Below, piece after piece: positions 4,202 through 57,159 of a stretch of 64,000 bases of DNA. A program made the translations under genes and the position numbers. Numbering within the stretch: position 1 is the first letter of the stretch; each line of letters starts with the position of its first letter. Source of the stretch: Enoplolaimus lenunculus (Eukaryota); NCBI GenBank assembly GCA_030248215.1, contig JASANG010001737.1, forward strand, positions 186,001 through 250,000. Direction: 5' to 3'. The notes under the pieces are model-generated. The model made no database searches. It was not told the origin of the DNA and saw nothing but the letters and a program-made list of their open reading frames with translations.

Positions 4202-4227
4202 AAAAAAACAAAACAACAAAAACAACC

Positions 4228-4303
<76 letters not shown>

Positions 4304-32571: not shown

Positions 32572-35500
32572 ATGGCGTAAGCGGTTGAGTTGAAGGTTTT
32601 TCATCACGGTGCAACAGGAGATAAAATACTATGAAAGCTCTAGTCAATACACAGCTGCAAGTCGAGTTAAATCCATCTTATCGCAAATTTACGGCTTGAA
32701 GCGCATACACGAGGTATGTTCCGCCACTGATTATTTTGGTAAAACAAAAATCACTACAATGAATTGACTTTAACCAAAGGTACAATACTCACGCTCAAGT
32801 AAAAATCAGCACCTCATCAACTCATAAAAGATTAAACGGCATAACTCACAATTTTTCATGACAAATATGCTGCAGTTGTTTGTGATACGAAGTAAAAATT
32901 ATGAAATTCATCTAAAATATTGAAAAATTTCCGTGCATCCGCCGTCGTTTTCTCGAATTTAAATAATGCCCGGTGAATATTAGCATCATTGAATTGAGTT
33001 GCCAGAAAAATATGACCTCTATCCGTTTCCGTTATATTTTGTTCGCTATCCGTTTCCGTTATTTTTACTATTCGCTTACATCCTGGTTGCTATGGGTTTC
33101 ATTTTTTCTATATTTTTTCAAAGCAGTCATTTTTAATGCTGCCAAAACTCGCTAGGAACTGGATAAACGAGGAGGTGAATTTTGATGAGGTATGCTTTGC
33201 AATTTCTTTTAGATATCGGCATATTTACAGGCAAATATATACATAAATATTGCTTGTGTGTTTGAGATGTCTCAACAGTCTCTTTGTGAAGCTGAAGACG
33301 CAGTTTCAGGTACCGTATACCTTTTATCTAGTTCTGCACTGTACGACAAGGCCCCTAAATTTGTTAAATGACATACCGCGGTGCTTATTTGCTTATTGTG
33401 CAGCGCTGTTCGTTACCGCGACGCACATAGTAAACCATAATCATACAACACTACGAAAACTCCTCCAATGAAATTTTTTGTTTGCTGATCTGGTAGGAGA
33501 TAGAAGTTGTATATATATTTTGTTCTTTCAAATAGCAACTTACTCGTTCAACCTAAAGCGAGCTTTCCCCTTAGTCCGATGGAAACAATCTCAAGTTAAG
33601 TTTACAACAACTCGTAGCCAGTTCAAAATGCTCAGAGGTTCTAAAATTTCAAGTTGAAACTTAACCCCACCCTGGCCTTGCTATTCATACGAGCCTGGAT
33701 TACAAATTTAAGCGTATGTGCTTTAACACAATCCCAAAAAATAAATATATAAGCGCCACACAGAATGGTCTAACTTTTTCAGAATCAAAGTCAAGCGAAA
33801 CTTCAATTCTTTCCAGTCAGTCAACTTCAGAAACTGAACCTAGTCAGTCAACGTCTAACCCGACCGATTCCGATACTTCGTCATTTTTGCAGCACTGCCA
33901 AGTCGACAGGAAAATGCATACGATCGTTAAAAGCAGAGAGAATCGCGCCAAATTAAATACCAAACGATATGTGAGATTTAATACGTTTTATGTGTTATAC
34001 CGAAACAGTGGCAGCTTGGATATTGACTGAAAGGACCCATTGTAAAAATATACGTAGCGGAGGAAATTTAATGAGCGGAGCGAGCGCAGAGCCAAAACTT
34101 AACCGGAATAGCGCCGTAGAAAAAACATTTTATTAACAAGGCTTGGGTTAGTCTTAGTGTTATGTATATACGCCTTTTCCAAAACGTAAGGCTAATTCTT
34201 AACCTATACGTAACCCTGAGCCAAGGTAGAACCGGATATAAACTTACCGAGTACCTGAACCAGAATCTGATATTTAACACAAATATTGCACGTAAATATA
34301 AAAATGTTGGAAGTAATTGATTCACGCAAAAGTGTATATGTCTGCAGAATTAAAATTAATTGTTAGCTTAGTCTTTTTGTTTTATTTGGTGAATAAATAA
34401 CACAATAGCTTTATTGCCCAAAAAAGTACTCGCAATTGTTCGCTTGCCAAAAACAGCTTTATTGTATACGGGACAACAACCGTAAAAATCCAGTATCCGG
34501 TAGGTTAATTAATACGAGATAATGGAATCGGATACAGAAATTGTTTTTGGCGAATGTTAAACAGGAGCCGGATATCCGGTCGAACACTGGTTTTGCTTAT
34601 CACTTTCTTTTCAGATTGACGTTGGCCACAGTAGCTTCTGGTCTGGTGATTTCTTTAACGAGGACATGCTTGATAGTTTAATTGGATCGCTTAACTTCGG
34701 TCCATACAACGAACATACCGGTGTCTACCAGGCTCAGGCGTACATGCTGGGAGAAGAATACACGCTTTCAAGACGTTTTTTTGATTTATTTCCTGACAAA
34801 AAAGCGAGATACGCCATCATCAATGTTCTGTGCAAACAGGAAGGCGATGAAGGAAGTCAGTTAAGAAACAGAGAAAAACTGGAGATTCTTACGTCAAATC
34901 CGACCCGTCTGGCGTTCTATCTGGCGACTTCAATGAGAAATGCTATTGAATCAATCATTACCTGCCGATGCAGGAAGTAAATATGTATTTAACATTACAT
35001 ACTATTTACCAACTTTCATAAAACAAATTTTGGCCCTTGTACTCTTCCCCCACATTTAATTCTGAACTTTAGGCTTGGCTTCGATATATCATAAACCTGT
35101 GCAAGAGCCGACAATAAATCGTTTAATCATTGTGTTTATTAGCGCTCCGTCGTGATACGCCACTAGTTTTTGTACAACTCAAGGCTCTTGCACATTCACC
35201 GTTCGCCCAATATTTAAAGGGAAACGACTAAGCTTAGACTCAGACTTAAAGGCTGCTGTACATGCTAAACACATGTCTAGGGTATAAAGGCAAGCTTATG
35301 CTTAGGCTTAGCTTTACGAAATGGCTCGCATATGCTAAACTGGGTCAAAACCTTGACCCAAGTCTATGATTTAATCTGAAATTAAAGGGAAAGTGTACCT
35401 CATGCTGCCTAAGGCAACGCTTAAGATGAGGCATTAAACGATGCGTGCCCGTTAAAAGGCTCTTTATTTTAGCAGAAGTGGCAGTTGTTTCATGGTTTGT

Positions 35501-38500
35501 TTTTGCTGCAATGTTTATTGCTTGTCTATTATGGACTATAAGGGCTTTCTTAATGTTGTTAAAGTTCTGTATTTTTTGTCCCTGCATTTTTCCTTGCAGG
35601 CACAAGAAAACTAAAAAACTTGCAAATCTCAGCAAAGCTGTAAATCAGCATATAGAACTCTGTATGACCGCTGATTTAGCAACCTTGATTAATGAAGATC
35701 CCAATTCTCCTGCAACAATTGCGCTCAGAAATGACTTGCACGATGCAACGCGATGTATATTGAAACATGCCAGAAAGCCTGTAAGTTTATATATTTTGTT
35801 TCGACTGTTGTAGCTCATTATAAAGTTATTGCTATTCTGTCTGCAAGGAAACAAGGATTTTCCCTTCCCTTGGTGTACATATGTAATATCTTGAATTTTA
35901 CCGGCTGTGTTGCAAAGATACAGATACATGGGTATAGTGACAACTCATCTCTAGACAACTGGTCAACCGACAGCTCATAACCAGAATTGTCGTCGATCCC
36001 GGCAACTCGGCTTTAGCAGAAGCTTATGTTTACGTTGTGAGGCAAAGTAGTCGGGCGACGAATTGTTGTAGATTCAGAGATAAATACGTGGAACTTATGT
36101 GTATATTTTAGAGAGTTCCGTCGCAAAACAAAAAACGTTGTTTGAAATGCAAGTGTAAGGTAAACCTCATCTTCGGGTGCTTTATAGTTTTATCAGCTAT
36201 ATGATAACCCTTTACAAGCGCATGCACTGGACACAACATGCCGTTGAGAATACTGTGGGTACTTTGTGTTTTGGTTAGTAGTCTAAATTTTTATTCTTGA
36301 GGTTTGTTGAGTTTTACCAGTGTTTCTTTTATACATACTTTTCGGAGTAAAACGTACAATTTGTTTAGTTTTCTGTGTTTTAAAAGCAGCATGATACTTA
36401 TAGTGTCGTAGATTTAGATCAACCATATTTCTAAGCGTAGTCGTAAGCCTTAGTGCAAAATATGGTGATGTTTAGTCCTACTTTTTTGCAGTTCATCAAA
36501 ACGCGGGATTTTGTAGTCTCAAAAATGACATGTGACAAATTACTTCCTATCCAACTTTGATTAAAATCAGTTGTTTTATTTTATAGGAATTTTTGTTTAC
36601 CAACATAATCAGTGGTGGCAAATACCTCGTGTAATTTTGCGCTTCAAGCCGTAAATTTGCGATAAGATGGATTTAACTCGACTTGCAGCTGTGTATTGAC
36701 TAGAGCTTTCATCAACTATATACAGTTGGTATTAATAAACTAAATTTATTTAAAACAGAGATTAAATTGGGTAATCTACTAATCTCACTTGTCTTAATGT
36801 GACTCCCCAGATAAAATTTGACCTGAAAATCATTTTTTACAGATGGAAATGACAGAGATTCACTTTGGAGTTTATTTTTAGGGAAGTCATTTTTTCACGC
36901 GGCATCGGCTCTACAAGTATTAAACAGGGGCCAAAGCATGCAAGCTATTTTAGGCGCAGAATGAAAACAAAGAAAACGTCAAATCAAATCGTGTGGAAAC
37001 AAATGTTAGTAAAAAAGTTGGTAATAATAGTGTAGGTATATTTAAATAGGCAATCATTCTAAACCTAGTTAAAGCACAGAACATCGATGCCGAGAGTTTC
37101 GGTGCGACTCTTATTTATTCCGTACGTAATCAGAAATATACACTGCTTGTGGAAAGCTTTACCTCTGTACTGGTATTTCTTGCGAGTAAAAATTTCAGTT
37201 GGGAACTGTAGAAGTGTTTACAATTTCTAGTCTTAATATTTTGTTTGCAATAATTGTTCTATCTTCTAGATGACGGACGAAAACCAAAAAGCCCAAAATG
37301 GAAAGCGCAAGGCAGCTGCCATGAGTACCAATATTACAGGCCAGTCGACAGAAGAACCAGATAATTTCCCTGGACATCCGCTTGGCGTATCGAACAAAAT
37401 AAATTGTGTAGGCATTAAATTTTATTTGTCCCGCCTTGATTTTGCAAGAAAACGGTGGGGTTAGCACACTCTTACTTTAACGAGCAGGATTTGAAATCGT
37501 TTTTTTCTTGAGCTTTTCTTTGCATTTGGGATAAAACTTGAAGCCAGACACTTAGAGTTCGTTTCATTGGTTGACATTGCCCAGCTGGTATAGGCGAGCA
37601 ACGGCTTTTGGAATATTTGATGTGAAAATTGTCCGGATATGTATATAAAAAGATATACACCCGTTTATCGATATATCCGGATATCTAGAGCAAAAAACTG
37701 TTCAGTCAATCTAACAAAGGTACATACATAAAATCTAAAGATATAAAAATTTCTAGTTATTTTACGGTATATAAAGGTTCGTTTTACGTTTTAGGAAGCT
37801 TCATTTGGAGCGAGTAGAAAACTAAAACAAGCGCTTTCAGTAATGCATCTTCCACAATAAAAAATTTATACAGGGCGTTGAAAACAAAAAAATCAATTCC
37901 ACATCACTATGCAAAACGATGTTTGACTTTATGAGTATTGTATATTTATTTTTTACGCAATTCGATAAATATAAGCATGTTTGTTAAATTTCAAATTTTC
38001 TGTGTTGTTAAAATTTTACTAAAAATATAAAGACAATTCCTTAAACCAAACTGAATTCGAAAATACAATTTTACCCGTCTGAATTTTTTAGTTTTGTAAA
38101 GCTTGAGCTACCTGGAGGTAAAATTGTGAGCCGTATTTCTTTGTAGACGACTTCATTGAATGCCACAAACACGCGCTGTGTAGTACGACATCCACGTTTC
38201 TATCGGTGTTTCAAAGAGGAATTTCATGTTTAAATTTGATACTCATTTACACCAAACTCAAAAATGTGCAAAAACAGTTAATATTTTGAATCCATACGTC
38301 GTGTGTTACGGAAAAATTTGTTACCCCGGAAATATTGTCGCCCGGACAAAATTCTTTGAAACAACCGAAAAATTTCCACCCACGGTAAACGTTGGCCTAT
38401 TAATAGTCATTTTATGATCGCCTAAAAGTACCATTTGTTTTTGTGCATACGTATTTGAACAGACATGTTTAATTACATGTTTAGTAAAAACATTTATGAA

Positions 38501-41500
38501 TTGATATAAGCAGAACTAAGATTATAAGCCAAAAGTGAAACGATATGTAAACTCTTTCAGTTAAAAATTTGATGATAGAAATTGCTAAAAATAAAAAATC
38601 GGATAGTTTCGTAATTAATTTCTCGTTTTCAACGCTCTGTACACATGTTGTGGAGGATATAAATCATTGTGCCAGGCATTGCAACAGCTTATCGCCAGAT
38701 AATTTGTCGATAAACAACTCTTATTGTAGATTGCAACAAGTCGTTAACCTGACGATAACTCGTCGGTTCCACAATTATAGGCTCATCTTAGGCGGGTCGT
38801 ACAGCTCGAAGTAACGTCGGGCTACGACTTGATGGTCGACGAGTTGTAGATTCGAATCATCCATCTTAAGCATGATAAAAATTTGATAAAAGTAGTCTAT
38901 CAATGTATCATCGTACTTTATCTCCAACTAGTCTAGTTTCCAACTTAAGTTTACACGTTTGTAAACTCTTGAGGCACCGGAAAATAACAAGGAAAATATT
39001 CAACCGCTTCGAAAAAAACGGACTATGGAAACGAATCATGTGGTTAAAGGCAAGACGACCGAATCGTTGAGTACAAACATTCCATTTTGCGCATCCAACA
39101 AGCAAAACTCTGTGAGCGTCGTTTTTAGTTCCGATTTTTCGTTCGCAACACGTGATGTTTATGTTTTATATATGTGTTGTTTGAAATGTATGCGTATGCT
39201 ATACTGGCAAATAAAGCATTTCCTACATATAAAAAGAATAAAATACATGTAATGTACGCATTTGTTATGTACTCTTATTGTTTATTAATAGCAAATTATT
39301 GACGATGCTGCGTTTGAGATCCAGATGGACCGAATTGTGAAGTGCCAACAATCAACGGACGATTTTGGTATGTATAGTTAAAAATTGTAATTTGCATGAA
39401 TGCCCTTTTGATTTTGTCCTCTGTCCAGACTAAATAGTTAGCCATCCATCTGAATATTTGGCCCCCGCCCCGCACCAGATCCGGCATTACTATAACCGGG
39501 CCCCCAAACAAGTGCCAAGGGCACCAATAAAATGTTTTAAACTGTATAACTTCATGATAAGGAAAAAATATTTTTGTTTGCCAAAGTGGCGCCCATAAGA
39601 GTCGAGGTCCACCCAAATGGTGGGTTTGGGGGGGCATCTGCCGGCACTGCCCCTTAAGATATGATTGTACCTGGACATTGTGGCATGTAGATATTCGGCG
39701 ACACCATTCAAAGTTTCCGCCCTAAATATGATTGAATAGCAACCGCGTCAAGTTCTTTCAACAAAAATCTCAACAGAGCATGCCCGCTAAACTTTAATGT
39801 TGCATCTGGAATTTTTAGTGGATTTAAACAGAGCATATTAATAACAAACTTTTTTATGTTTGAATAATTTTTATACGCTTATACAAGGATGGGCGGTCGT
39901 GATCTTGGTTTTGGTGGAATGGAGAGGGGCGAAATCTAGGGACTTGCCATTTTACACCAAATTAAGAATTAGGGTGGGACCCTTTCCTCCTCTAGGTACG
40001 CTCAACAGCAACGTACCTCCATCCATGTTACCTGTGTAAGAAGAAGGTATATAAATTCAATACTGTTTTATGGCCAATTCTACTGAATTCTGTTTTGACA
40101 ACAAGTGTTGCTAAGCTATAGTTTCATAAGTAATGTGTGAAAAGTGTGTGTGAACATTTTTATACGGCCTCCGTTTAACCCTGGAAAATTTAATTTAGCT
40201 ATCACCTTAAACCCTTAAGGTAACACTTGACAATGAAATCTACGAATATTCGCTAATAAAGTGACCGTATTACACATTTTAACTATGGATAAGAGTTTTA
40301 CTGTTTGTTAAATAAAAACCACGCACAGTATATATACGAACTGCGAATCAAGCCGCCGTTAAATTATAGGTCTTCCAAAAGTTACTGTGAACCACAAAAA
40401 AGCAATGAAATCTGTTCCAGGATGGTCAAATTACCTTCAAAACAAAAGGCGCTTAAAAAAACAGGTATTTGTATATCTTTCAACAGTTAATGAATAAGTT
40501 TGCGCTGGCATCACCGCAATTCGACGCCTGTCATCTCGTCGACCTACAATTTATAACCCAAAGGATCGCCGACCCCATATTTCTCCAAATCTACATCCCA
40601 AAACCAATCAGTAGGTGTTAACACCCGTCACCAGACCAGGCAAGTGGTGTCCACTAGATATCGGAGACAAAAGTGTTGGGGTCGGCAACATATCGGGTTA
40701 ATACGAGTTATTGGTTGATGAACTGCTGATGAAGAGTTCTTGTAGATTCATGTGCAGTATAGAACTACACGAACGTTGCAGTACATGATTAAGACTGGTT
40801 TTATGTGTCTCTACGGCAATCGGTTTGAAGAATGTGTTTAATTTGTTTTTTGTTTCGATGGCAAGGCCTTTCTACACACGGCTCTATCATCAAAATTTTG
40901 TACATCCCCGCCGGTATTCGTAGAAATTTTTTGTACACACTTCAGAAAACTGACAGCTTGGATAAAGTGATAGGAACACAAGCAGATAAATCGTCCAAGC
41001 CATCGCCGTATTCTCAGCAGTATGGTCTTGGAGAACATGCTGAACAAAACGATCCTGGAGCGCAAACTGAACGAAATGGTCCTGGAGAGCAAACCGAACA
41101 GAATGGTCCTGGAAAGCAAGCCGAACATAATGGTCCTGGAGAGCAAGCCGAACCTAATGGTCCTGGAGAGCAAGCCGAACATAATGGTCCTGGAGAGCAA
41201 GCCGAACCTAATGGTCCTGGAGAGCAAGCCGAACATAATGGTCCTGGAGAGCAAGCCGAACCTAATGGTCCTGGAGAGCAAGCCGAACATAATGGTCCTG
41301 GAGAGCAAGCCGAACCTAATGGTCCTGGAGAGCAAGCCGAACCTAATGGTCCTGGAGAGCAAGCCGAACCTAATGGTCCTGGAGAGCAAGCCGAACATAA
41401 TGGTCCTGGAGAGCACGCTGAAAAAAACAACCCTGCAGATAAAACTGAGCAGAATGGTTTTGAATGGCAGGCTGAACAGAATGGCTTTTTAGAGCAAGCT

Positions 41501-44500
41501 GAAAACTATGATCCTGGAAAGGAAATTGAACAACATGGTGCTGGATGGCAAACTGAACAGAATTACACTGCGGGTCTCGCTGAACAAAACGATGATGCAG
41601 AGCAAGGAATAGGTAAGGCATTTGGAAACATCTGCTGGTGTAAACTGTAACGTTTTCGGCGAATTACATTTAAACCGATGTCTAATCAATTTCTTGGGAC
41701 TGTAACGTTTTCGGCGAATTACATTTAAACCGATGTCTAATCAATTTCTTGGGACTGTAACGTTTTCGGCGAATTACATTTAAACCGATGTCTAATCAAT
41801 TTCTTGGGACTGTAACGTTTTCGGCGAATAACATTTAAACCGATGTCTAATCAATTTCTTGGGACTGTAACGTTTTCGGCGAATTACATTTAAACCGATG
41901 TCTAATCAATTTCTTGGGACTGTAACGTTTTCGGCGAATTACATTTAAACCGATGTCTAATCAATTTCTTGGGACTGTAACGTTTTCGGCGAATTACATT
42001 TAAACCGATGTCTAATCAATTTCTTGGGACTGTAACGTTTTCGGCGAATTACATTTAAACCGATGTCTAATCAATTTCTTGGGCATTTCTTTGCAACTTT
42101 CACTCACTTTACGTTTGTTATTTTTATCATCTTTTACAAATCCTAGGACGGAATCCCCTCTTTGGATCCGCGACTGCACTCAGCGCTGGTGCCAGGGTGG
42201 AACCGAATCCACGGTTTGACCTAATCCGAATTCATTGCTAATTTGCCGAATCTGGATCCGAACCTGGCATTTTGCAAATTTCCGATATATTGTTAATTTG
42301 TTTCAGAATACCAGCGGAACACCAGCCGAAATAAACTTTAAACATTGATATATTTCGTTCCCGCCCCTAGCTCTGAGATTTGTGACATGAAACAAAAAAT
42401 ATAGATTTAAAGCAAGCTATTAAAATTTGTTTAAAAATCTAAAAAATACTGCCGAACATTGTTGGACTCGGCTTTTGCATTCGGCTTTTTCACAATCGAA
42501 TCCGAGTCCGAACCTCAAATTTTTACCGAATTCGAATCCGAACTTTCATTACCGCCCTGGCTGGTTCCACTTGTCTCGTCGCCAAAAAGAAGGGAATAAA
42601 CGTGCTTGCTATAGATTTGCGAATAACCCTTGTGTGGCTAATATTTAGTCGTAAACTTTTATGATCTAAAGCGCAACATTCTGAAAATAATACGTACAAT
42701 ATATATACGTATACATTAATATGTATTAAACTGAAGCTGGACATTCAGGACCCCGCTGTAGCTCCAATTTTTGAAGGACACACAGCTGTCCGCTGCGGTT
42801 TTGTCATTGAGCAATGATAAGGACATAATAGTGCAAAGCATATTCTCAAGCAAAAGCCTAATCGTGAATATGAAACTATAATTAAACCTTGGCCAGCAGG
42901 ACTACGCCAAAGTAAAAAATCTTAGTTTTAGGCCTATGCCCTCTTGTAATACCGCGGAAAACGACACACCTTGCAATATAGGCCGTAACTAGGAAGACTG
43001 TTGGTAAATGAATATGAAGTTAAATTTTCGAGTTTCATCCAAAGTTTTTTTCTAGATTCCCACAGTGAATTATGCAACGAGCAAAGTGATAGCAACAACA
43101 GCCTTGATAGTATTGACTCTGATAATAAATACGTGCCAAATGTTGACTGTTTGCAAGGTTAGAACCAAAACATATATACTTCTTGAGGTCATAAAATAAT
43201 TTCGATTTGTTTTAAATGTCAAATCGCCCCTGAACCGTCGGGAAGAGCATTTGCCCACACAACTCCAAAAATCAAAAGTTCTAGTTTTTATTGTACACAC
43301 TTTGATTCCTCATGTTAAAATTTAGGTTCAGACTGAGGGTTGGCTTAAGAACCCACCCGTAAGCAGCTCAACATGCTAGACGCGCATGTTATTATTTTGC
43401 AAGCCAGCCCCCATCAGAAATTTTTGGATCTGCCTCTGCATGAACGGATTTTTATACAAATTTTAGATTCAGGCAACAAACACTTGGAAGCGAGAAGCGA
43501 AACAAACGGTGACATCTTCCGCATTGGATGTTGTAACGATAGCCCAGAAAGAGCAATACTTAATTCAACACAAACAACTGGTTTTTTGCTTCATTCAAGT
43601 CCAGTAAACGATTCAGACAGCTTTCAGACTGGTACGTACATATATTTTATTAAAAACCTACATTTTTTGGTTCTGGTTTTGTGTTGCATATAAATTCTAA
43701 GATAATCCGGCAGAGTCTACAACTCATTAAACAGTATGCATAGAAGCAACAGATAAAGACAGTTTCTTCAAGAGTTTTCAACGACTATGAAGTTAAACCT
43801 TTCGTAAGAATGGGTAAATTCAGGGTGTGGAACGAAAAATTGAAAGCATTTACTCGGAAAAATATTTGAAGGTAGCACGTGGTCGCAAAGGTGTAAAGTG
43901 CGCATTCAATTTATGACATTGCATTGAAAAGCGGTCAATATTCTTTTCTACACAGCTAGATCGTCGAAGTTCAGCTTTTTGACAGAATTTCTACGGGACA
44001 AATTAAAATATACCAGAACTTGTTAATTCATTTTTTAATTGGGATAGAAAATATGAACAGAATAGATTATATAGCGATAGCAATTTCTTATATAAAATCT
44101 AGCGTATAGGTAACTTATGTATTATTCTTTTAAGTGCGCAATGGAACTGCTGTACGAGCGGATCCCATCCACAGTGCAACCCAATCGACGAATCTTTCTG
44201 ATGACAATCGGGTAAGCAGACGGAGCATTCGAATTTTCGTCCAAAACTGCAAAGATTTAAGGCAACCACATTTTGATTATTCTTTGTTGAAAACAGATCC
44301 TGAAAATTTGTTTGTGTTTCAACACGCTGATATTCGGGTCGGAAGAGGTGTAAAGACAAAAACCAATATACCATCAGGTTCCGTTGTATTACAGTACGCA
44401 GGACAGCTTTTGTCAATGAAGAAAGGCAGGGAGAAAGAACTCGAATACGCTAGTCAACAAAAAGGAAATTATATATTTTATTTCAAAAATCCCATCACAC

Positions 44501-44727
44501 AGTCAACTTGGTGCGTCGATGCAACTTATGATGATGGAAGGCTTGGAAGGCTTGTTAACCATTCCAAGTCTTCTCGAAACATTGAACCGATTATTATAGT
44601 GTACAAAAACATTCCGAGGATAGTTTTTCGGGCAATAAGGGACATTTCGCCAAACGAGGAGTTATTATATGCATATGGAGAACAACGTCCCCATGTTCTA
44701 AAAGATTTTCCTTGGTTGAAAAACTAA
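32572..44727 (+). CDS. 14-exon gene (~910 aa) with a C-terminal SETD8/KMT5A/PR-Set7-like SET domain
   Basis: Hand-built exons 32572-32576 (ATG GC), 33156-33189, 33267-33309, 33783-33970, 34615-34976, 35600-35780, 36112-36159, 37270-37407, 38974-39111, 39292-39367, 40370-40464, 40946-41612, 43467-43631, 44135-44727. All introns are GT-AG, all phases are compatible, total 2733 nt = 910 aa + TAA. The 5' exons are less certain than the last three. Confidence 0.75.
32631..36712. repeat. Inverted repeat pair 32631-32750 / 36588-36712 with a 75-bp perfect core
   Basis: atgaaagctc...ttgaagcgca (32631-32705) is the exact reverse complement of 36638-36712; about 45 bp more matches imperfectly. Confidence 0.93.
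41075..41417 (+). repeat. Coding 27-bp minisatellite (GPGEQAE[H/P]N) x ~12
   Basis: aatggtcctggagagcaagccgaac(a/c)t repeated within exon 12 of the SET gene, with degenerate copies on both sides. Confidence 0.95.
41644..42083. repeat. 55-bp tandem repeat x 8 (intronic)
   Basis: actgtaacgttttcggcgaattacatttaaaccgatgtctaatcaatttcttggg, near-perfect copies (one substitution seen). Confidence 0.97.
42193..42559. mobile_element. hAT-like MITE
   Basis: cagggtgg...ccgccctg ends with an 8-bp TSD-like pair gctggtgc/gctggttc and internal ccgaa/ttcgg subterminal repeats. Confidence 0.8.
44135..44727 (+). CDS. Terminal exon encoding a SETD8-like histone-lysine N-methyltransferase SET domain
   Basis: Motifs GRGV, YAGQL, YIFYF, WCVDAT, GRLGRLVNHS, EELLYAYG and terminal FPWLKN parallel SETD8 (GRGV, YCVDAT, RLGRLINHS, EELLYDYG, HPWLKH). 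Divergent paralog-like, so no symbol is given. Confidence 0.93.
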
Positions 44728-45064
44728 AATTTTCTAGTAATCATACAGGTGCGTGGGAGACATCTAAGCCTTATTTGCATTTTAATAATCTATTGCGACA
44801 GAGTAATGGGGTCGCTATACTTGTCGTGCGACGCTGTTCGATGACAAATAGCTCCGTAAATTAATGTTTGTTTTGAATAGATATGCTGTGCCTTGCAAAA
44901 ATACACGTGCATTGCGGTACGGTTTCGGATTGCACCGGACGGCGCCGTAAAACAGTAAAGTAATCGAAAAGTATAGCGCCACCTTTAATTACGTGCAGGT
45001 AAAATACCGCTCAATTTTGTATTTTGTAACTATAATCAACACAACGTTTTGTCAATAAATTTAG

Positions 45065-45673
45065 GATGGTTGTTCAAAACAACTTGACATCTTAAAAACG
45101 AATCTATCGCAAACATTGTCAGTGGAACCACCTACCTCACATGAATATAAAACGATCGAACAGGAGGTTTTAGCCGGCGCAGCCCTTAGTGATGTGCCAG
45201 TTGACATGGTTCAATACTTAATTTCTACGCATCTTGGGCTGAAGTTACAATCATCATTATATTGCCAGCGTTACTTTAAACCGGTGGAAGGTGACCATAT
45301 CCAAATTTTGCACACTGGCCAATATCACTGGGTAACTTCAGCTCGAATAGATGGCCATATATACATAACAGACAGCTTGTACATGGACCAACTTACAGAC
45401 AAACTGATTTGCCAGCTATGCGAACTGTACAGAACCAATCCTTACAAGCCGTGTTCATTGGAAGTCGAACGACTGTGCGTTCAGAGGCAAACAAATTTCG
45501 TTGACTGTGGCGTTTTCGCTCTTGCGAACGGGGTCTCTCTTGCGCTAGGGCATGATCCTTGTCGAGTAAAATACCATATGCCTAGTATGCGAAAACATCT
45601 GTGCAAAATAATTAGACATTGGAAGTTGGAGATGTTTCCATGTACTGTTGTCGAAGAGCATAGCAGTCCTTGA
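45065..45673 (+). CDS. Ulp1/SENP-like (peptidase C48, clan CE) cysteine protease domain
   Basis: QILHTGQYHWVT (His ~45326), YITDSL (Asp ~45371) and VQRQTNFVDCGVFALA (oxyanion Gln, Cys ~45506) give the His-Asp-Cys order of clan CE. Frame is open from the acceptor tttag|GAT at 45065; first in-frame ATG at 45206; TGA at 45671-45673. Confidence 0.85.
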   Translation, partial: DGCSKQLDILKTNLSQTLSVEPPTSHEYKTIEQEVLAGAALSDVPVDMVQYLISTHLGLKLQSSLYCQRYFKPVEGDHIQILHTGQYHWVTSARIDGHIYITDSLYMDQLTDKLICQLCELYRTNPYKPCSLEVERLCVQRQTNFVDCGVFALANGVSLALGHDPCRVKYHMPSMRKHLCKIIRHWKLEMFPCTVVEEHSSP

Positions 45674-48214
45674 TATAACAGAAAACGAATCATAGGAACA
45701 ATTGAACATCTTTTTGATCCTGTGGGCAGTTTAGTTCTCCTATGCATATATGTTGTGTGGGGATGTAACGAAACGCGCAAAATTATTCTGAAGAGATAAA
45801 CAGCTTTTGCACACTTTATTTCCACATTTAAGACTAAATTCAGCCTTCGAGAACTTTTTCTCCGCCTAAGCCTAAGTCTAAGTGTGCGCATGAGACTGAA
45901 CCTAATCCTAGGCGTAAGCCTGGATGTGAGAGTGTACAAAAGCCAACACAAGTTTTGAATTGGTGCTAAATAATCCGGTACTCGAGACATAAATTTTTTC
46001 TCTTACAACATTCACATGTATGTAAATATCTGTATCTGTGCCGAAACCAAGGAAATAGATTCGATTTTATCTTTTACTGCATTTTTATTAATTGTTTTAT
46101 TAAATATATCTTTATTTTGTCTTGCCATATACCTGCTGTCGCAGAAATTTCACTATGGGTTTGCAAAATTTTGCAAAATGCATATTGCCATTTTTGTAGC
46201 CATATTAACGATAGACGCAACAATCTATTGAGCAGTATTTTAAGCGACCAGTTTTAAATATTATCTGCTCTAGATGCCTTATATACACTTTGTATTGCGG
46301 CCGAAGTTTGTTTTCTTGATTCTTTTTGTAGTTTTGATTTTACGAATTTTTCACTCGCTTTCTTTGTTACATTGTGTGTGCATAAAAATAAAAGCCCACC
46401 ACGCGTCTCACCTCTTTGTGCGTTTCAAATTGCACGGGGCCACATGCAATTGAATAAAGTCTATAAACGGCTTAAGGACAAATTTTATTACAATCGCTCG
46501 TGAACTAAAAGCTATCGGTAGGATTAGCCAGTCCCTATCGGCATATTTTATGGTTGCGCGTATGTGCATTTTTATAGCGCATTGAATGTGAATGCTATCA
46601 ACGTTAAAATTGTACGTGTTCAGGTTTATGTATTTCTATTTCGGTTAGTGTATGTCGAATATAATTTGAAATTTATAAAAAGAGTGTGTGTTGTTGTCTA
46701 CACATAAAAAATACTGATTGATGTATGAAAACACTGAGCGATTATTAATACGTGCGCATAAAAAAAATTGAAAAAAGTAGCGCTAAAAAATTTGTGCGTA
46801 TAAAAAATGACTGCAAAACCAAACGAAATTTTTTAACAACTGTGTTGTGTTCTAGTCAACGACGCTCGCAGCCAGCTCAACAGGAGGTGAATTTTAAAGA
46901 TTACACATATAGAAACAGTGCAAGTGTTTGGGAACTTTCTATATGACTTTGCTTAAGTGTGGTTTGGTTCCCCGACTACGTACAAATCGCTTAAAAAACA
47001 AGATTGTTCGTAGTGATGTTTTGTTCCTTATTTACAGTGCTGGGTGACTAAAATTATGACCCATGCACTTAGTGGGCAAACAATTTTAGGCCAAACTCAG
47101 AGTTAAAGTTTAAGCGTTCTAGAAGAGGTATGCTGTTGAATTCAAGACAAACCGGAAGCGGGTATACAAAACGTCTGGGGGCAGGAGGATACCAAATTTT
47201 TATGCGGATTGTCTGAAGATTTCTGCAGTATTTGAACCAAAGCGTAGATTTTTACGCTCATTTTCAATATATAGGTCGTTTTTATGCTTAAAATTGCACC
47301 TTTTATAGTTGGGCGCTGTGTTGTTTGCTAGGCTTTAGGACTAAGTGAGCAACATGGTTTACAGGTTTTGCTAGACAGCTTGACACGAATGTTGGCCCAT
47401 GTTACTATATAGGGGCGTTTAAGTTTCTGGAGGGTCTACAAAAGAGTAGGTTTAGATTCTAGATATATATTTTTTGCTTAGGCTTACGAATACGCTAATT
47501 CTTACGCCACTTTAAAGTAACATTGGCCCAAATGTTCCAAAGCCGAAGTGCCCTTCGACCTGCCAGTGGTTTGGACTAGTTCATTGTTTTCAGGCGTAGA
47601 TCTGAATTTTAAATTTGTGTCACAAGCTGCTGACGTGTTTGTAAATGCAGTGACGAGGTTGAAAATGTAGCAGTTTTGCATTTCATGGGCACTATTTCTG
47701 TAGCAGTTTGGAGATACGCAAATTTAGAAATTGTCAGTTTGAAAACCTATTGTTTTTTGTTTGGTATATTTATAAAAATAGGTGCTATACACAATTGAGA
47801 AGGCCCATACTTCCATGTGTAGAACAAGGCCGGATCGGTTTCCAGCGGGGCTGTAATAGAGTCAGTTTAAGGTTTAGGCTAGCTTTTTTGCTCAAGCTGA
47901 GACTTAGGTTTAGAAATAGGCTCATTCTTACGCTTAGGCCTAGTCGTAGCCTTAGGCTTAGAAATATGCTTTTACTACTCTCCCCACCGTGTTCTATACA
48001 TAGGCCACTTGTGCCATTGAGAACATATAAGGTCCCTAAATTCGTTTGACTCAAGGTTCACGTTTTCTGGGCCTACTTCAGATATATTTGAACTTGTTCT
48101 GTGCAATACTTTTTCAGTTTCATTTTGGAACTAAAATACACCATTTGGAGCCGTTTTCGCTGCTGCTGCGCAAAACACACGCGCTGCCGCAGGTTTTTTT
48201 TCGTCAACGCTGCA

Positions 48215-51200
48215 ATGTACAGTGCTTCTGCGCAAGATTCATATGCACCGACGGCCAACCATGATTCCAATACGAACTTTTTTTGCTCGAAAGACGGCGA
48301 TTCAGTAATTGCTGCTGTATGCGTACGAGATATTCAAACAAATCCAGGGCCAGTTTGTGGTCGTTTGTCACACGCTGAAGAACAACAAAACCCTGTAACT
48401 AATTGCGATTGCTTGTCGAAACCTGAAGAAAGCCAACTTCTTTTAAATGAGTCAATATGCGATTGCGAAAAAAAAATTCAGAATTTGCTGCTTCTCTGTT
48501 CGAAACTGCGAAAGTATGTTCATTCGTTTTTTATATTTTTGGCCTCTGTATACTTTCTTTTTCCACAGAAGACGAGGCTTACGCTTAAGCCAGCTTAGAC
48601 TTCATAGGTACGACTTAACCAGATGTTGACGAGAAAGAGGACGTAAGCCTTTTGTGAAACCTAAACATAAACGTGAGCCTGAGAATAAATCTACGGGGGA
48701 GCGTATATAGTTATAGAACCGAATTTTGAATATTGTGGTATTTTGAATAGTGCGTATACTCGATAAAAATGTTGTAACAGCTAAGATGTGAATAAAGATT
48801 TAGATCTTTTATCAGTATTCTTTGAAATGTTAAAGGATTCAGGCTCAGTATCAGCAGCCTGCCGTGATTTGGAAGTGAAAAAAGTGTCTGTACTAATCTC
48901 TATAATTTTGGGTAAACTTTTGCACTGTCGAATATCGCTGTTTTGGAGGAAGAAACTACGATTGTCCAAAACTATTTATACGTTGTATTTAGAAAGCGGT
49001 GATGACTTGCCAGCAACACGGTGGGAACACTAGACCAAAATTAGCATTCCTGAACGGCTCATTTTCGATACATCAAAATTAGGCAGCGACTTAAAGTATA
49101 TTAGTTCTCTCACTCAAATATGAACAGGAATAGCAGCATAGAGCTGTGTATCGATATAAAAAGTTACTGAACAAAGCGTCTAAAACACAGCGCGGAATGT
49201 TTTCGAAATATATTGGTCATAGTCGTCATATCCGGATTCTTCTTCGGTATTCAACTTTATGGACCCAAACTGACAAATAATTTTTAGAAGCAATAGCTTG
49301 AAACATAAAAATATATGACGTGTTCGGAAAATATTGCAAGCTCACTTAACGACATCTTAATTGAAAGAACTTGCGATAACTCTTATCTGTATTTTAGCTA
49401 GACATTGATTTTTGATCGCAGCGGCAGCCAAAGACAGAGCTCATACTGCATTCAGTTTATTGTTTTAGTTTGGAAATACTAGTACGTACGCCTCTAATGT
49501 AATGTTTGGCTCCAATGTTTAAGGTATGGCACTCAACAATTACAGACACATGTACCTGCACCTGTTGACGATTTCACAGAATTACCGGGATGGCACGTTT
49601 CGAAAATCACACAGCGCATGGAGTACTTTCTGTTCAATGGAATCCGTCGGTTTTTCAAATCACCTTCAAACATCTTGTACGATTCAATTAATTGTGGTTT
49701 TTTCATTTGGCAAAACCCCGGCGAGACTATCAAATCAGTATGGAATACTTGTCGCCCGGAAGTTTATTTTCGTAATAGAGATGCTTTCCAGTTTTTCACA
49801 AACAATTTACCAATTGCAATTTTTCATGAGAAGAATTTGAACAGTTACTTCGTCACATCATTGAACGATCCATACTTAGCTGTAGCTGCAGTGAAGGCCA
49901 AGGTTCAACTTGCAGAAGAGTTGGCCATCACAAAGAGGTTTTCGCATCTTACAGCTGAAAAGGTTGGAAGTTTGTGCGCTCTTTTCTCTCAACGACAACG
50001 ACGAGCGGTTAAGTATGCCGTTATGGAGACTCAGGGAAATTGCATGTCTGTGCGAATGTTGAAACAAATTGGCATATACCATCCAAAAGAAATTAGAGCA
50101 ACTGTTTTAGCAGATATGCAGAAGATTGAAAAACTTAAAGAGCAGTTCAATAAAGTTATGCTGAAATATTCTGAAGAATCCAAATCTAACACAAACGCTT
50201 TAACCAGATTTATAGATGACGAAATTGAATACCTTGGTAACGGAGGGATAGCGTCTTGTCTTGACAAACACCAAAACGAATTTACCAATAAAAATGCTGC
50301 AGGAGTGGAACTGTTGATATCAATACTTAAACCTCTCGCGAATATACGGAACCGAATAAACAAACTAATCGGTAATGATATTTTGTCGCTTCAAATCATT
50401 TTTTTCAAAATCGCATGCTACGCAACGCAAAACAATGTCACATTATCGAACCGAATGATAGAGTACATTAAAGAATTACAATATCCACAGAAGTTGCTGC
50501 GTCAAATTTTGAATAAGACTGTCACTGATAACGACTTGCAAGTGATCGTTAGCTCTATGATGACAGATGCCATTCAAACGGCAGAAGACAAAATTCAGTT
50601 ACTTATACGTGAGCTTGATCCATATGCAGCGAGACACATTCAGGTAATTGCTAAGATTACGAATGCGTTGAAAAGCATGCAGAATTCAAGTAACAGTCAG
50701 ATTGCAGATGCACTGGGACAAAACGATAGATTGGGATTACGAGTTCTATTGTTTCAAATTTTTAAATATGCGTCGCGCAACTGCATCAAGATACCACGGC
50801 AAATCAAAGAGTTTGCCGTTTGCCTTGGGTATCCAGAGCCCGTCTTGCGATGCATGTTAGATGGTTCGAAGCTACCAACCGCTCATATCAGCTCAATAAG
50901 CTCAGATTCTGAAATATCAAAAGCTGCGGAATCTTTGAAACAGGTAACCATTAGATATATAAAGCGCCAGAAAATATTATTGTATAATATGCTACGCGAA
51001 CAAAAATATGTGCGTCCCAATAGAGAGCCCGCCTACTTGAAAAAGTTTCCGAACGTGGGTCTTGCTATTGAAAGTTTTGTGCGGCGAAATAATGTAGGTG
51101 CAGACCGTTGGCGGCAATGTGGTTCTCTAGTTGCCTACTATAGAAGGGGAACGAAGTTAAGGCGCACGCATAAAGTTACTTTCAAAACTATTCAAAAACA

Positions 51201-54200
51201 TCTTAATAAAATATATTATCCACACAAAATATCTACGTCCACAATTTTTTACCTTTGTTGCCAACGCCATAAGTTAAAAAAACTGGTCCATCGCCATTAT
51301 AATGAAATCGATCTGCGATTCAAACGAAGTCGTCGTGGATTTACTGTTAAACACTCTGTTGACAAGTACCTTAGCGACGCATTTTATCGACTTAAAGATT
51401 TTATTGAATTGAAATGTAGTGTTGCAATAACATGTAACTCTGACGATGCCGCAGCGATCAGGACTGATACAGTGATTACACACTGTCAATTTCCGGTTCT
51501 CTCCCTGGAAGGTGAAGAAAAATTACGTACTCGCGTTGACTATCAAAATGCGTATCCATCTGGCATTCAGGTTTCTTCTTACTTCTTTCCTGAAACAAGT
51601 AAACATCCTATGAAAGTCGCTGGCGTGGTTAAACCAAAAGGTCTTTTTGGAAAGAGTGCAGCCCAGCACTACACTGATTATCTGAACGTCGAGGCTTGGG
51701 CAATTACAAAGCCGGACAAATTTTTTGTTTGGTTGTATCGCCGCGACGGCGGTCCTAATGAGGGCCCTGACAAAAAAGAGGTGAAATTGTTTGCGGCGCT
51801 ACTTCATCTTAACAAATCACAACTAATGACTGTTGTTACATCACGGTATGCAGGCGGTTCATACAAAAATGATGTGGAACGTGTTAATGGTTGTTTAAAA
51901 CAAGCAGAGACTTTGTTTCACTGCCCATCAACATCTGTTGGTAAAAACGACCTCTGGCAAAGCAAACCAGGCGCTCAGCTGCTAAAAGAAAATTGCGAGA
52001 TGGCTGGTAAAATCTATATGAGCCACGTCGATGGCGTGAAGTACAAAAACACGCCAATTAAATTGATGTTGGGTACAAATACCGAGTTCACGCGCGACAT
52101 TGTTTCGGCTTTTCTTGGCAAAAATCAGCATCAACGAAAGCTTCAACAAAAGAAACACCCTAGTTTATGGAAGCAGTTAGTACTCGCGCAGAACATTCAA
52201 AGAGCGCATGAAATGCCTTCCAGCGATGCGAAGTATTTTTATGGTTTACAACTGTGCCTTGGCAAGTTCGATTGCGGGCATCCGCTTTGTTACAAATATT
52301 CTACATCAAATACTTACAAGAACATGATGTAAGATTTTGTTGTTTTTACGGTAGCAAACAAAACACCACAAGGTAGAAGTGGGATATGAATTTCGCCAGT
52401 GATGATACAATCACACATTTAATTTCGTGCCTGCTTGAAACAGCTCTTTCAAACTGTATCTTAAATTAGGACCTTGGATAAGCTCTTCGTCGATGTTTCA
52501 AGCATTTTCATATATATGCTAATTTTCAACTGGATTTTATGATAAAGGTTTAGTTTCCTTCACTGAAAACTTTGTAAACTAGTTTAAACCAGTGACACGT
52601 CATGTCAACTCTGGATTCGCCGCTAATTGCCAGCTCAGCTGATATATAGGATATATTTCGTTTAGAAACACTTATAAATGTGTTTTCCATTTTTTTAGAG
52701 ATAACTTGCTCTGGTATCCGGGTGGTCCGCATATTTTCAAGATAACATATCCAGTTCGAGATCCATCACGAGAATGGGGTATCCATTGCGAAGACTGTGA
52801 CGGTCCGTGTCGCGGACACTATTTGGCAGGTATATTTTGCGTTTAATAAGAGATGGGATGAAGTGCGGGTAAACGCGAAAATATTCAGAGCGCGCATGAA
52901 AAATTGTGATTTTCAGCTCACCGAGATTTCGGGCAGCGATCGATAGACAAAGTACTTATAACTATAGCACAGAGTACATTGTTTTACTTGTAGAATAATG
53001 GTTTGTTTTTACCATTGCTATTACGGTTATCCTAACGCTAATTGGTTTCGGTTTTGTGTATGCGCAAATAATCAAATCTGATCAGTATAGTTATTAGCGG
53101 TTTAGCCTGGCATAAAATTCTTGTTCATAAAACTAGCATGTTAGCCTACACACAAATGTCTTTTATTTCAAACATTAATATTATCCTTAAACAGTTCAGA
53201 AATTCGTTTCTTAAACGGTTAAAACATAAATGTCTTATATTCAAGAAATTGCTATTGACAATTGAAAAAACACATGTTTCTTATTTGGAAATAGTTGCCT
53301 TTTGCTCAAGAATTAATTTTTTGATTTTTATGTATTTAAAAAGGTTACTCCATCATTCTTCAATTTATTATACTTCGGGTTGATCAGCCCGCCCCCAACC
53401 TAAGTTTACGTATTAGGCGTATCTTAGGTTGTAAAATTAAGTTGGTTTAGCTTTAGCCCCCATTGTTTCATATTACAGAAATATTTGTCTTATATTACAG
53501 AAATGTTTGTCTCAATCGTTCGTGAAACAAAGTCTTAAATCTCAGACTTTTAAGTCTAAAAATTTCAGACCCATATTTCTGAAAGTTTAAGAAAAATAAG
53601 TCTGGAATTCATGACATGTATGTCTGGAGGCTAGTGCCTAGACCAATGAGTAATTTGCCTGAATACCAGATTGGCCAATTTACTTTTGTTTTCAACAATT
53701 TCTGTTTAATTCAAATATAATAGTAATTTGTTTCATTTGAAAATATGTTTAGAAGAACAAGCAATTGAAGCTGTTATGAAAGATTCGTCGCTTCAAATCA
53801 GTATTTATCCGTCTAAACGAATAGCTCAACACGTTAAGCTTGCCGTTGTTGATCGCATGGACCCTTATGTTGGAGCTGAAGCTCTGGCTCGGTCATGTAT
53901 GCTTACACTGGCGGAAACGAAAAATGAAATAGAAAGACTGCTCAATTTAAAAATTAGTTGTGAGTTTATGTTACGCAAAGCGTTTTGGGTCGGAATGTAT
54001 TAAAATTTAAACGTTTAGATAATTAAATATGTTTCCACATGCTCAGCCCATCGTAAACTAATAAATTTTCGACAAGGGTCACAAAAGTAAAACAGAACCA
54101 CGCGAGCTTTCGAGCGAGAACTAACGGCATATGGTCCTAAAGCATATTGAAAACTTTTTTGTTTTGTAACAGTTCGGCGAAGCATCTGATCTCTGGTTCC

Positions 54201-55543
54201 TTTTAGATCTGTTCTACTTTAGCGTGCTGCAGCCCGTCCGGACATATATGCAAATCATAGTATGTATATATTAGATCTTTTTTGCATTTATACGTATTCG
54301 ATCTCGCCGCAAAACATAAAAATCAAAAAGTGCGTTTTAAAAAATAGATGCATAGGTATTAGTATTTTTGGTATTGCACTAAAATTCTAGTTTTGATTCA
54401 GCATCCAAATAGTGGAAACCAGATTTTTATTTTGATTCTAAAAAGTAAAACTTAAACTTTTAAGCTGAAAACCGGCAAAAACTTCGCAAAATGCAAATAC
54501 CAAGCCGATATTGCAAGTCTCACAGGCGACGCCAAAATAAAGAGTACGACGGCGATTCAGTATTCTCAGACACAGAATGCACTGATAGCAATACGGAAGA
54601 AAGCGATAGCAACTCTGACTCTTCGTTGTCAACAACAAAAAAGATGTACCAGCAACCGTTGCCCGATGGTAACGGCAATAGCAAAACACCTTCGAGCAAG
54701 GTTGTAACCACAGTTCGAAGTCGACAAATCAAAAGGAGAGGTAGGAAACGTTTAGCAGATGACAATAATGAATTAAGTTCCCATTGTGGTGTCTCTAAAA
54801 ATCCAGCGATTGCGTCAATTTCTGAAACTCATGGTGATATGCGTAATCATGAGTGTTCTATAAACAATACTTCCCAAAGTGAAATAGAGCTGTTTTGTCA
54901 GCCTTGTCAGCAAGTGTTGTCTACAACTGGCAGTGTTGATCACAGCCTTTACAGCAGCAACGCGAATTATAACGCCGTTATTGCATCGATTTCGAAAACA
55001 CTTGCTGATTTGCGCAATTATCAGTATTCCGTTAAAAACACCAACGCTTCTGAGAGCGAAACTGAACTTTTCTGTCAACACAACCAGGAAGGATTGCCTA
55101 TTGGTAGCGCAGAAAACTCTAAGATTAGCAGCACTAACGTTACCCATAACGCCGCTATTGCATCTATTTCAAAAACACTTGCTGATTTGCGTAATTATCA
55201 ATGTTTTGTTAACAACACCAACGCTTCAGAGAGTGAAACTGAACTTTTTTGTCAACAAAGCCAGGAAGAATTGCCCATTAGTAGCATAGATAATTCTAGC
55301 AGCACTAACGTTACCTATAACGCCGCTATTGCATCTATTTCAAAAACGCTTGCGGATTTGCGTAATTATCATTATTCCGCTAAAAACACCAACGCTTCGG
55401 AGAGTGAAACTGAACTTTTTTGTCAACAAAGCCAGGAAGAATTGCCCATTAGTAGCGTAGATAATTCTAGCAGCACTAACGTTACCTATAACGCCGCTAT
55501 TGCATCTATTTCAAAAACGCTTGCGGATTTGCGTAATTATTAA
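48215..55543 (+). CDS. Intron-containing Zator/ISAzo13-like DDE transposase (~1500 aa)
   Basis: Exons 48215-48513 (tentative), 49524-52328, 52699-52829, 53753-53959, 54465-55543, all GT-AG and in phase. Catalytic-like motifs SDDAA (D ~51442-51447), RRDGGPNEGP (D 51745) and GGSYKNDVER (E 51877), with 43 residues between the second D and E. C-terminal WYPGGP...CEDCDGPCRGHY Cys/His motif. Confidence 0.78.
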
Positions 55544-55940
55544 TATTCTGCTAACAACACCAACGCTTCGGAGAGTGAAACTGAATTTATCTTTCAACAA
55601 AGCCAGGAAGAATTGCCTATTGGATGCGCTGATAACTCTAAGATTGGCGATACCAACGTTAATTATAACGCCGCTATTGCAACTATTTCAAAAACACTTG
55701 CTGATTCGTGTAATTATCAATATTCTGTTAACAACGCTTCGGAGAGTGAAACTGAACTTTTCTGTCAACACAGTCAGGAAGAATTGCCCATTGCAAGCGT
55801 TGATAACTCTAATATTGGCAAGGTCAACGTTAACAAAGTCACTTTTGCATCTATTTCAGAAAGACTTGCTGATCTGCGTAATTATCATTCCCTTATTAAT
55901 AACAACAGCAACGCTTCGGAAGGCGAAACAGAACTTTTCT
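54950..55940 (+). repeat. Coding tandem repeat, ~177-183 bp (~59-61 aa) x ~5, plus degenerate flanking copies
   Basis: Repeated NAAIASISKTLADLRNY...NASESETELFCQQSQEELPI units. Confidence 0.92.
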
Positions 55941-56065
55941 TGCCTAATGGAAGCGTTAACCAGCTTAATAGCGACAATAACGCTAACTCCGCTACCGGAT
56001 CTGTTTCAAAAACATTGGGGGACTTGCGTAAACTCGAGTATTCTGAAAGTGAAACAGAATTATAA
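55544..56065 (+). pseudogene. In-frame continuation of the transposase repeat exon beyond a premature TAA
   Basis: Same frame as ORF 54491. The TAA at 55541 sits where sibling repeat units have CAG/CAA/CAT after ..LRNY, and the repeats continue to TAA at 56063-56065. Confidence 0.7.
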
Positions 56066-57087: not shown

Positions 57088-57159
57088 TGAGTGAGTAGAC
57101 AGATTAGTATTTACACAGGGATTCTTAGATCTACAAAGTTTCGCATAGCTAAAAAATAA

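What the first reader, a model, noticed from the sequence alone, without database searches (positions are those of the whole stretch)
32572..56065. Candidate giant Zator-like transposon carrying chromatin cargo: SETD8-like methyltransferase + Ulp1-like protease + DDE transposase
Seen: three co-oriented, mostly intact coding units within 24 kb of an otherwise gene-poor repeat landscape. Known: SETD8 is the H4K20 monomethyltransferase; Ulp1-like proteases are carried by several DNA transposons (Zisupton, some Mutator elements); described Zator elements are typically a few kb with a single transposase. Inference: this is one mobile or domesticated unit that may counter silencing by removing SUMO-dependent repression and writing its own histone mark. 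I do not know of a described Zator element with this cargo, but I could not search, and element ends were not found.
Basis: partly seen in the sequence, partly recalled or inferred. Interest (0 to 1): 0.9.

Follow-up and report, generated by a model that had tools for sequence, protein, structure and literature searches.

The report
Probable giant transposon with chromatin enzymes
An intron-containing cut-and-paste transposase gene lies beside coding sequence for a histone-methyltransferase-like and a SUMO-protease-like enzyme, apparently on only one of the two chromosome copies, and these likely form one large jumping element that would tamper with its own silencing, although its ends and other copies were not found.

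Summary
The transposase is a 5-exon gene (48215-56068) with a DD43E triad and a mariner-like fold. The SET domain ends a 14-exon, 948-aa model and is a divergent SETD8 paralog, not the canonical enzyme. The Ulp1-like exon keeps His-Asp-Cys, and a strong in-phase splice donor 21 nt after the SET stop suggests that SET and Ulp1 are two ends of one gene. Contigs of the source sample cover 19.3-57.0 kb at about half the depth of the right flank, which hints at a one-haplotype block of 38 kb or more, with a probable fourth gene. Not shown: that this block is one mobile unit. No TIR, TSD or second full copy was found. None of 64 loci of related transposases carries SET or Ulp1; three complete relatives are 5.6-7.2 kb elements with TWA duplications and a different accessory gene, but they lie in another sub-clade and most contigs are too short. 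Zator membership is inconclusive. SET and Ulp1 cargo are each known in other transposon groups. Verdict: probable new variant of a cargo-carrying DNA transposon, about 45%.

The parts
   Evidence: table 8; X1 15.4-28.4 (12 pieces) vs 34.2-40.1 (3 pieces), X2 5.8-12.0 vs 14.9-18.9; one sample, probably the source
19459..26858 (-). Probable fourth multi-exon gene, acidic and low-complexity, with four tandemly duplicated exons at 19996-21351; no family hit; intactness not established
   Evidence: exon-chain score 80 vs 23 on the other strand; repeated AG..GT exons; no Pfam hit for 4 exon ORFs
32631..36712 (.). Inverted repeat pair (32631-32759 / 36581-36712, outer 75-82 nt perfect), no target duplication seen; encloses exons 1-5 of the SET model
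33136..44727 (+). 14-exon gene model, 948 aa, no internal stop: long mostly low-complexity N-terminus (27-bp repeat exon 40946-41612) and terminal SETD8-like exon 44135-44727
   Evidence: exons picked by eye, all 13 introns GT-AG and in phase; one search recovers 12 of the 12 internal exons (score 230 vs 52 opposite strand; splice matrices trained on these introns, so partly circular)
44341..44724 (+). SET catalytic domain: GRGV, QYAG, RLVNHS, ELLYAY, FPWL motifs, intronless
44738..44748 (+). Candidate 11-nt micro-exon / in-phase donor after the SET stop that joins exon 13 (or SET by readthrough) to the Ulp1 exon
   Evidence: donor score 8.1, 16 such sites on the + strand of 64 kb; acceptor 4.3 (weak); joined frame open, 957 aa
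45065..45673 (+). Ulp1/C48-like cysteine protease exon, His88-Asp103-Cys148 with Gln142
48215..56068 (+). Five-exon DDE transposase gene (48215-48513, 49524-52328, 52699-52829, 53753-53959, 54465-56068); open for 1506 codons; catalytic D at 51445 and 51745, E at 51877 (DD43E); TAA at 55541 in a 171-bp repeat tail
   Evidence: (homology runs across introns 2-3 and into exon 5, E 3e-17); repeat copies differ 52/63/122 at codon positions 1/2/3
57149..57721 (.). Error-like A-rich stretch near the presumed right junction; probably assembly noise that may hide the terminus
   Evidence: notes reads seem cut at 57532-57694

Best explanation
The block is likely one large (38 kb or more), intron-rich cut-and-paste DNA transposon, probably present on one haplotype, whose Zator-like DD43E transposase would excise it and insert it at TWA sites, and whose accessory gene is predicted to give a SETD8-derived lysine methyltransferase and a Ulp1-like protease as two C-terminal forms that would alter chromatin marks on or near the element. 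Shown: gene structures by sequence and homology, catalytic residues, fold, TWA duplications and TIRs in relatives. Inferred: hemizygosity (from contig depth), the SET/Ulp1 splice link, origin of the intronless SET exon from a host SETD8 copy, and that all genes move together. Untested: H4K20 methylation, SUMO cleavage, expression, anti-silencing. This copy may be ageing: it has host repeats in its introns and a stop in the transposase tail.
For: All three enzymes keep their catalytic residues in open, spliceable frames. Spacing is tight: 338 nt SET stop to Ulp1, 2.5 kb Ulp1 to transposase. A strong in-phase donor links SET and Ulp1. Listed contigs over 19.3-57.0 kb have about half the flank depth in both runs with no overlap of ranges (ratios 1.65 and 2.0); the 12 X1 pieces inside show 0 other letters, the 3 flank pieces 26, 2 and 3; two internal duplications show about double depth. 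An essential single-copy SETD8 is unlikely to be hemizygous or this divergent. The transposase family is mobile: L020, L021, L029 have TIRs and TWA flanks, and L045 shares the 5' end of L029 at a different site. SET and Ulp1 cargo have precedent in other DNA transposons (PMC12730594, PMC3212892, bioRxiv 2025.02.11.637652).
Against: No TIR or TSD in five searches; the relatives' TIR motif is absent from the window. 0 of 64 related loci carry SET or Ulp1, and the three complete ones are 5.6-7.2 kb with a CIDE-N/SAM/NCD2-like accessory gene that the window lacks. No second near-identical copy in the same sample; only a depth excess over the DDE core bin (136 vs 23; 44 vs 7) that cannot be resolved into copies. 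Depth comes from one sample, probably the source, and the tool warns it is no copy number. No contig bridges the repeat at 47.4-47.9 kb between Ulp1 and transposase by 31 nt on both sides. TTAGGC-type host repeats are nearly as dense inside the block as outside (0.77 vs 1.09 and 0.99 per kb), which argues against a very young insertion.
Confidence: 0.45

Rival explanations
1. A hemizygous repeat-rich island in which a Zator-like transposase gene (own element, ends eroded) happens to lie next to a SET/Ulp1 gene left by a different element or by host gene duplication.
For: No ends found; compact relatives carry other cargo; the island holds local duplications and many host repeats. Ulp1 and SET are carried by several unrelated transposon groups (PMC3212892, PMC6446971, PMC12730594).
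Against: All genes are co-oriented, close, and open with intact triads, unlike a pile of wrecks; no second transposase or recombinase was seen among 22 window ORFs scanned; the window's transposase belongs to a sub-clade (with P0009, P0033, P0054; 100/98 support, long branches) whose DNA context could not be fetched.
Confidence: 0.3
2. A domesticated, immobile gene cluster on a presence/absence haplotype or a sex-linked segment: the host keeps transposase, SET and protease as chromatin proteins.
For: Four introns in a transposase whose relatives are single ORFs; host repeats in introns; coding constraint on the repeat tail; no TIR. Half depth fits a sex-limited or haplotype-limited segment equally well.
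Against: The DDE triad is intact; a premature stop lies in the tail; no flanking host genes were seen in the window to anchor synteny.
Confidence: 0.17
3. The SET gene is the host's own SETD8 ortholog and the neighbours are incidental.
For: Best PDB matches are SETD8; long disordered N-terminus with many introns.
Against: 78-83 bits against SETD8 chains vs 177-231 for canonical-type P0167; 43% identity to P0167 over 123 columns; no TD[FY][FY] degron motif; apparent hemizygosity.
Confidence: 0.04
4. The block is misjoined to the right flank by a noisy read and lies elsewhere, so its size and context here are partly artefact.
For: Error-like stretch 57149-57721 at the depth change.
Against: Internal gene order is backed by zero-difference contigs 44001-47461 and 47848-53235; the same host repeat families occur inside and outside.
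Confidence: 0.04

Closest known systems
Zator superfamily (Bao et al. 2009, not readable here; as described in passages of PMC7386202, PMC10045372, PMC12905397)
   Same: IS630-Tc1-mariner-type DDE fold; 3-bp TAA/TTA duplications in the relatives of this transposase; weak collinear match of the N-terminal core to bacterial ISAzo13. A composite Zator-1 unit that carries a captured host gene (tesD) is described in amphioxus (PMC12905397, passages).
   Different: Relatives' TIRs start TGC (GG is the recalled Zator terminus); no clear PF07592 match; this copy has a 5-exon transposase of 1500+ aa, no detectable ends, and SET/Ulp1 neighbours, which I did not find described for Zator.
Compact two-gene relatives found here (L020, L021, L029; same layout as earlier scan note e1-6512188)
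   Same: Same transposase family, 33-39% identity over the core, DD43E, same C-terminal Cys/His region.
   Different: 5.6-7.2 kb, TGCRCY TIRs, upstream CIDE-N/SAM/NCD2-like ORF in 26 of 64 loci, often a C-terminal PHD; no SET or Ulp1; transposase in one ORF.
SET-carrying DNA transposons: HarbingerS and Phytophthora MuDR (PMC12730594, PMC6446971, passages), red-algal Plavaka PAG2 and some Helitrons (bioRxiv 2025.02.11.637652, passages)
   Same: A DNA transposon with an accessory SET-domain gene, proposed to counter silencing.
   Different: Other superfamilies and, for those named, oomycete or algal hosts; none is stated in the passages read to be SETD8-derived or paired with a Ulp1 exon.
Ulp1/C48-carrying transposons: oomycete CryptonF/CryptonS (PMC3212892, passages); Zisupton and Mutator (recalled)
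   Same: C48-type protease with His-Asp-Cys triad in a transposon context.
   Different: Here it appears to be an alternative last exon of the SET gene rather than fused to the transposase.
SETD8/KMT5A/PR-Set7
   Same: SET motifs, the tyrosines of the QYAG and ELLYAY motifs, and the C-terminal PWL.
   Different: Much lower score than a canonical ortholog, no PIP degron, intronless SET exon, novel N-terminus.

Membership tests
Zator | DDE transposase of the IS630-Tc1-mariner group | tested here: met
   AlphaFold model pLDDT 81; best structural matches Mos1 Z 11.5, Metnase 11.2, tied within 1 with IstA 10.6; Foldseek best rows Mos1 but none at E<=0.001; DD43E
Zator | Similarity to bacterial ISAzo13/TP36 transposases (PMC10045372) | tested here: inconclusive
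   HHalign family vs 37 ISAzo13 proteins: E 0.0088, 82 columns, score 28.0 above 12 of 12 shuffles; IS630 control scores as well (E 0.0013, 44 columns, 33.4); PF07592 is not among the families hit by 2 or more of 113 members
Zator | 3-bp TWA target-site duplication | tested here: inconclusive
   Relatives: TTA/TTA (L020), TAA/TAA (L029), TAA/TTA (L021). Window: no ends found, so no TSD
Zator | Short TIRs (33 bp in PMC12905397) starting GG (recalled) | tested here: not met
   No TIR pair in the window (a noisy stretch may hide one end); relatives' TIRs start TGC
Zator | Clusters with Repbase Zator transposases in a tree or PSI-BLAST | not testable with these tools
Single cargo-carrying mobile element | Two or more copies sharing gene set and ends | tested here: inconclusive
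   No genome held; no second near-identical copy in source contigs; 0 of 64 distant loci have SET/Ulp1, but only 6 reach 5.3 kb and 4 reach 6.3 kb upstream
Single cargo-carrying mobile element | Insertion polymorphism with an empty site | tested here: inconclusive
   Half depth over the block; no empty-site contig seen in the cut tables
SETD8/KMT5A ortholog | SET domain closest to SETD8 with catalytic motifs | tested here: met
SETD8/KMT5A ortholog | Ortholog-level conservation and PIP-degron segment before the SET domain | tested here: not met
   vs 125
SETD8/KMT5A ortholog | H4K20 monomethylation | not testable with these tools
   needs an assay
Ulp1/SENP (C48) | His-Asp-Cys triad with oxyanion Gln in clan CE order | tested here: met
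   H88, D103, Q142, C148
Ulp1/SENP (C48) | Pfam PF02902 above cut-off; SUMO specificity | tested here: inconclusive
   18.2 bits vs cut-off 20.7; also weakly like bacterial CE deubiquitinases; single-sequence fold unusable, pLDDT 42

The most novel reading that the evidence does not exclude
A giant (38 kb or more) intron-rich Zator-like transposon of an animal that captured the catalytic exon of SETD8 and splices one disordered scaffold to either an H4K20 methyltransferase or a SUMO protease, giving the element both a writer of a replication- and compaction-linked histone mark and an eraser of SUMO repression.
Probability: 0.3. Interest if true: 0.82.

Novelty: new variant of a known kind. Interest (0 to 1): 0.58.

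Why it matters
Transposon-encoded chromatin enzymes are the element's side of the silencing arms race, and few are documented in animals. A SETD8-derived writer and a SUMO-type protease on one element would give a directly testable case (two small catalytic domains, known substrates). It would also extend Zator-like elements from single-gene, few-kb units to giant spliced ones. Independently of the cargo question, the transposase family (348 clusters at 50% identity, no Pfam model, TGC-TIR, TWA duplication) is poorly catalogued.

Tried and rejected
Word-index homolog searches found nothing for the transposase core or for longer SET relatives; 4 SET relatives at near length. Viral contigs: no transposase relative in 3 scans; 4 weak SET loci. 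Prokaryotic genomes: no transposase relative; 64 SET loci, none of these 68 loci with Ulp1 or transposase. No RNA holder listed, so expression and splicing are untested. Run X3 (another organism) holds only repeat pieces. Protein atlas gave no result. TIR searches; the best left-right inverted alignment (16934-18000 vs 56070-57200) scored 170.5 against shuffles of 148 +/- 10, max 167.5 of 30, and is treated as compositional. The idea that the SET gene's N-terminal exons derive from the relatives' NCD2-like accessory gene was tested and rejected. No Rfam or tRNA hit. The original Zator paper was not held. Not found in print: ten full-text searches of an open-access library; Repbase Reports and subscription journals are not covered, and no supplements were read. 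Papers were seen as search listings and keyword passages only.
Full report
Setting. No genome is held for this window. The DNA is 38% GC, dense in small repeats and has spliceosomal introns; an animal host is inferred, not identified.

Observation. The three units exist. The SET ORF (44134-44727) hits PF00856 (E 5.9e-18) and SETD8 structures best. The ORF at 45065-45673 is C48-like, below the Pfam cut-off, with His88-Asp103-Cys148 and Gln142. The 944-aa ORF has no Pfam hit but 348 relatives at E<=0.001 among 1.84 billion representatives, the best at 33-39% identity.

Transposase. An alignment of 113 sequences gives conserved D, D and E with 43 residues between the last two. The predicted core (pLDDT 81) matches Mos1, Metnase and other DDE enzymes; Foldseek ranks Mos1 first but with no row at E<=0.001. 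The gene has five exons, 48215-56068, with GT-AG introns; similarity to single-ORF relatives continues across the introns (E 3e-17 to P0009). The frame is open for 1506 codons; a TAA at 55541 falls in a 171-bp repeat tail whose copies differ mostly at third codon positions (52/63/122 over 566 codon pairs, not independent). In a tree of 52 rows covering the core (61 of 113 dropped for coverage), the window's protein groups with P0009, P0033 and P0054 on long branches.

What the relatives look like. One metagenome scan gave 64 loci. None has a SET or Ulp1 match. The test is weak: median length 4.0 kb, 6 of 64 reach far enough upstream to show a Ulp1 at the window's spacing and 4 to show a SET; the scan pattern came from the main clade, and I could not tell whether any locus is of the window's sub-clade. 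Three loci are complete elements of 7189, 6937 and 5624 bp with TIRs starting TGCRCY and TWA flanks. An upstream ORF with SAM and NCD2-like matches, and CIDE-N in one locus tested, occurs in 26 loci and has no match in the window. So the family transposes and duplicates TWA like Zator (PMC12905397, PMC10045372, passages), but its usual form is compact and carries other cargo. A profile test against 37 ISAzo13 and 22 IS630 proteins was weak for both: Zator-like, membership open.

SET and Ulp1. Fourteen exons from 33136 to 44727 join in phase to 948 aa without a stop; a simple exon-chain program recovers the internal exons and scores the region 230 against 52 on the other strand and 34-46 in 11 kb of flank (partly circular). 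The SET domain is one exon, scores 78-83 bits against SETD8 chains where a canonical-type protein scores 177-231, and lacks the degron motif: a derived paralog. A donor among the 16 strongest on the strand lies 21 nt after the SET stop, in phase with the Ulp1 acceptor; an 11-nt micro-exon there would join exon 13 to Ulp1 in an open 957-aa frame. This was noticed after the fact and has no RNA support, but it suggests one gene with two catalytic ends, or a fusion with readthrough.

One block? Two DNA runs of one sample, probably the source, hold the stretch. Of the 8 longest pieces listed per run and call, the 12 inside 19258-56956 have depth 15.4-28.4 (X1) and 5.8-12.0 (X2); the 3 in the right flank have 34.2-40.1 and 14.9-18.9. 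One piece per run over an internal two-copy duplication (30 and 13.2) was left out of these ranges. Flank pieces carry allelic differences, inside pieces of X1 none. The block also holds a probable fourth gene on the - strand. Extra summed depth over the DDE core bin hints at diverged paralogs; the bin has no match to repeats elsewhere in the window. No ends were found; the right junction falls near a noisy stretch.

Mechanism. Most likely the block is or was a single large cut-and-paste element. The transposase would cut at terminal repeats and insert at TWA (inferred from fold and relatives). The accessory gene would deliver a methyltransferase, by descent probably for H4K20, and a SUMO- or ubiquitin-like protease, to keep the element's chromatin permissive (inference from known roles of SETD8 and SUMO, recalled; direction of the effect is uncertain because H4K20me1 also seeds repressive H4K20me3). 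Confidence 0.45; chance neighbourhood in a hemizygous island 0.30; domesticated or sex-linked cluster 0.17; host ortholog or misjoin 0.04 each.

Prior art. SET cargo is known in HarbingerS and Phytophthora MuDR (PMC12730594, PMC6446971), Plavaka and Helitrons (bioRxiv 2025.02.11.637652); Ulp1 cargo in Cryptons (PMC3212892); gene capture between two Zator-1 elements in amphioxus (PMC12905397). A review of giant transposons has no Zator or Ulp1 mention (PMC6431247, keyword search). All papers were seen as keyword passages only. Ten searches found no Zator-like element with SET or Ulp1. The finding is a new variant of a known kind if the linkage holds; the linkage is the open point.

Noticed in passing
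window 19459-26858 (-): Probable fourth multi-exon gene with four tandemly duplicated acidic exons (about 360-500 bp period); no family hit.
   Followed up: partly
window 23611-24395 / 26158-26942 and 27201-28208 / 28952-29959: Two near-identical direct duplications (785 bp, 99.5%; 1008 bp, 99.8%), no TG..CA ends, depth about two haploid copies; the first contains a possible first exon of the - strand gene.
   Followed up: partly
window 32631-32759 / 36581-36712: Low-copy inverted repeat, perfect over the outer 75-82 nt, without a target duplication, around exons 1-5 of the SET model.
   Followed up: partly
window 57149-57721 and 4202-4320: Error-like A-rich stretches, probably long-read noise.
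   Followed up: no
window 9825-10006, 15722-16933, 20796-20882, 31605-31779, 47813-48005, 58595-58780: Very high-copy family of about 190 bp with TTAGGC repeats, also in a 307-bp tandem array; class not determined.
   Followed up: no
window 53150-53630 vs 5721-6196: A host repeat lies in intron 3 of the transposase gene, about 70-84% like an inverted copy in the left flank.
   Followed up: no
L020:6015-13203, L021:123-7059, L029:3923-9546: Complete two-gene elements of an uncatalogued DD43E family with TGCRCY TIRs, TWA duplication, CIDE-N/SAM/NCD2-like accessory ORF and often a C-terminal PHD; no Pfam model covers the transposase.
   Followed up: partly
L069:1072-2119: An intron-containing eukaryotic SETD8-like gene in a bacterial metagenome-assembled genome: likely a contaminant contig.
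   Followed up: no
window 41022-41503, 41644-42083, 57990-58633: 27-bp coding repeat in SET exon 11; 55-bp and 77-bp non-coding minisatellites.
   Followed up: no
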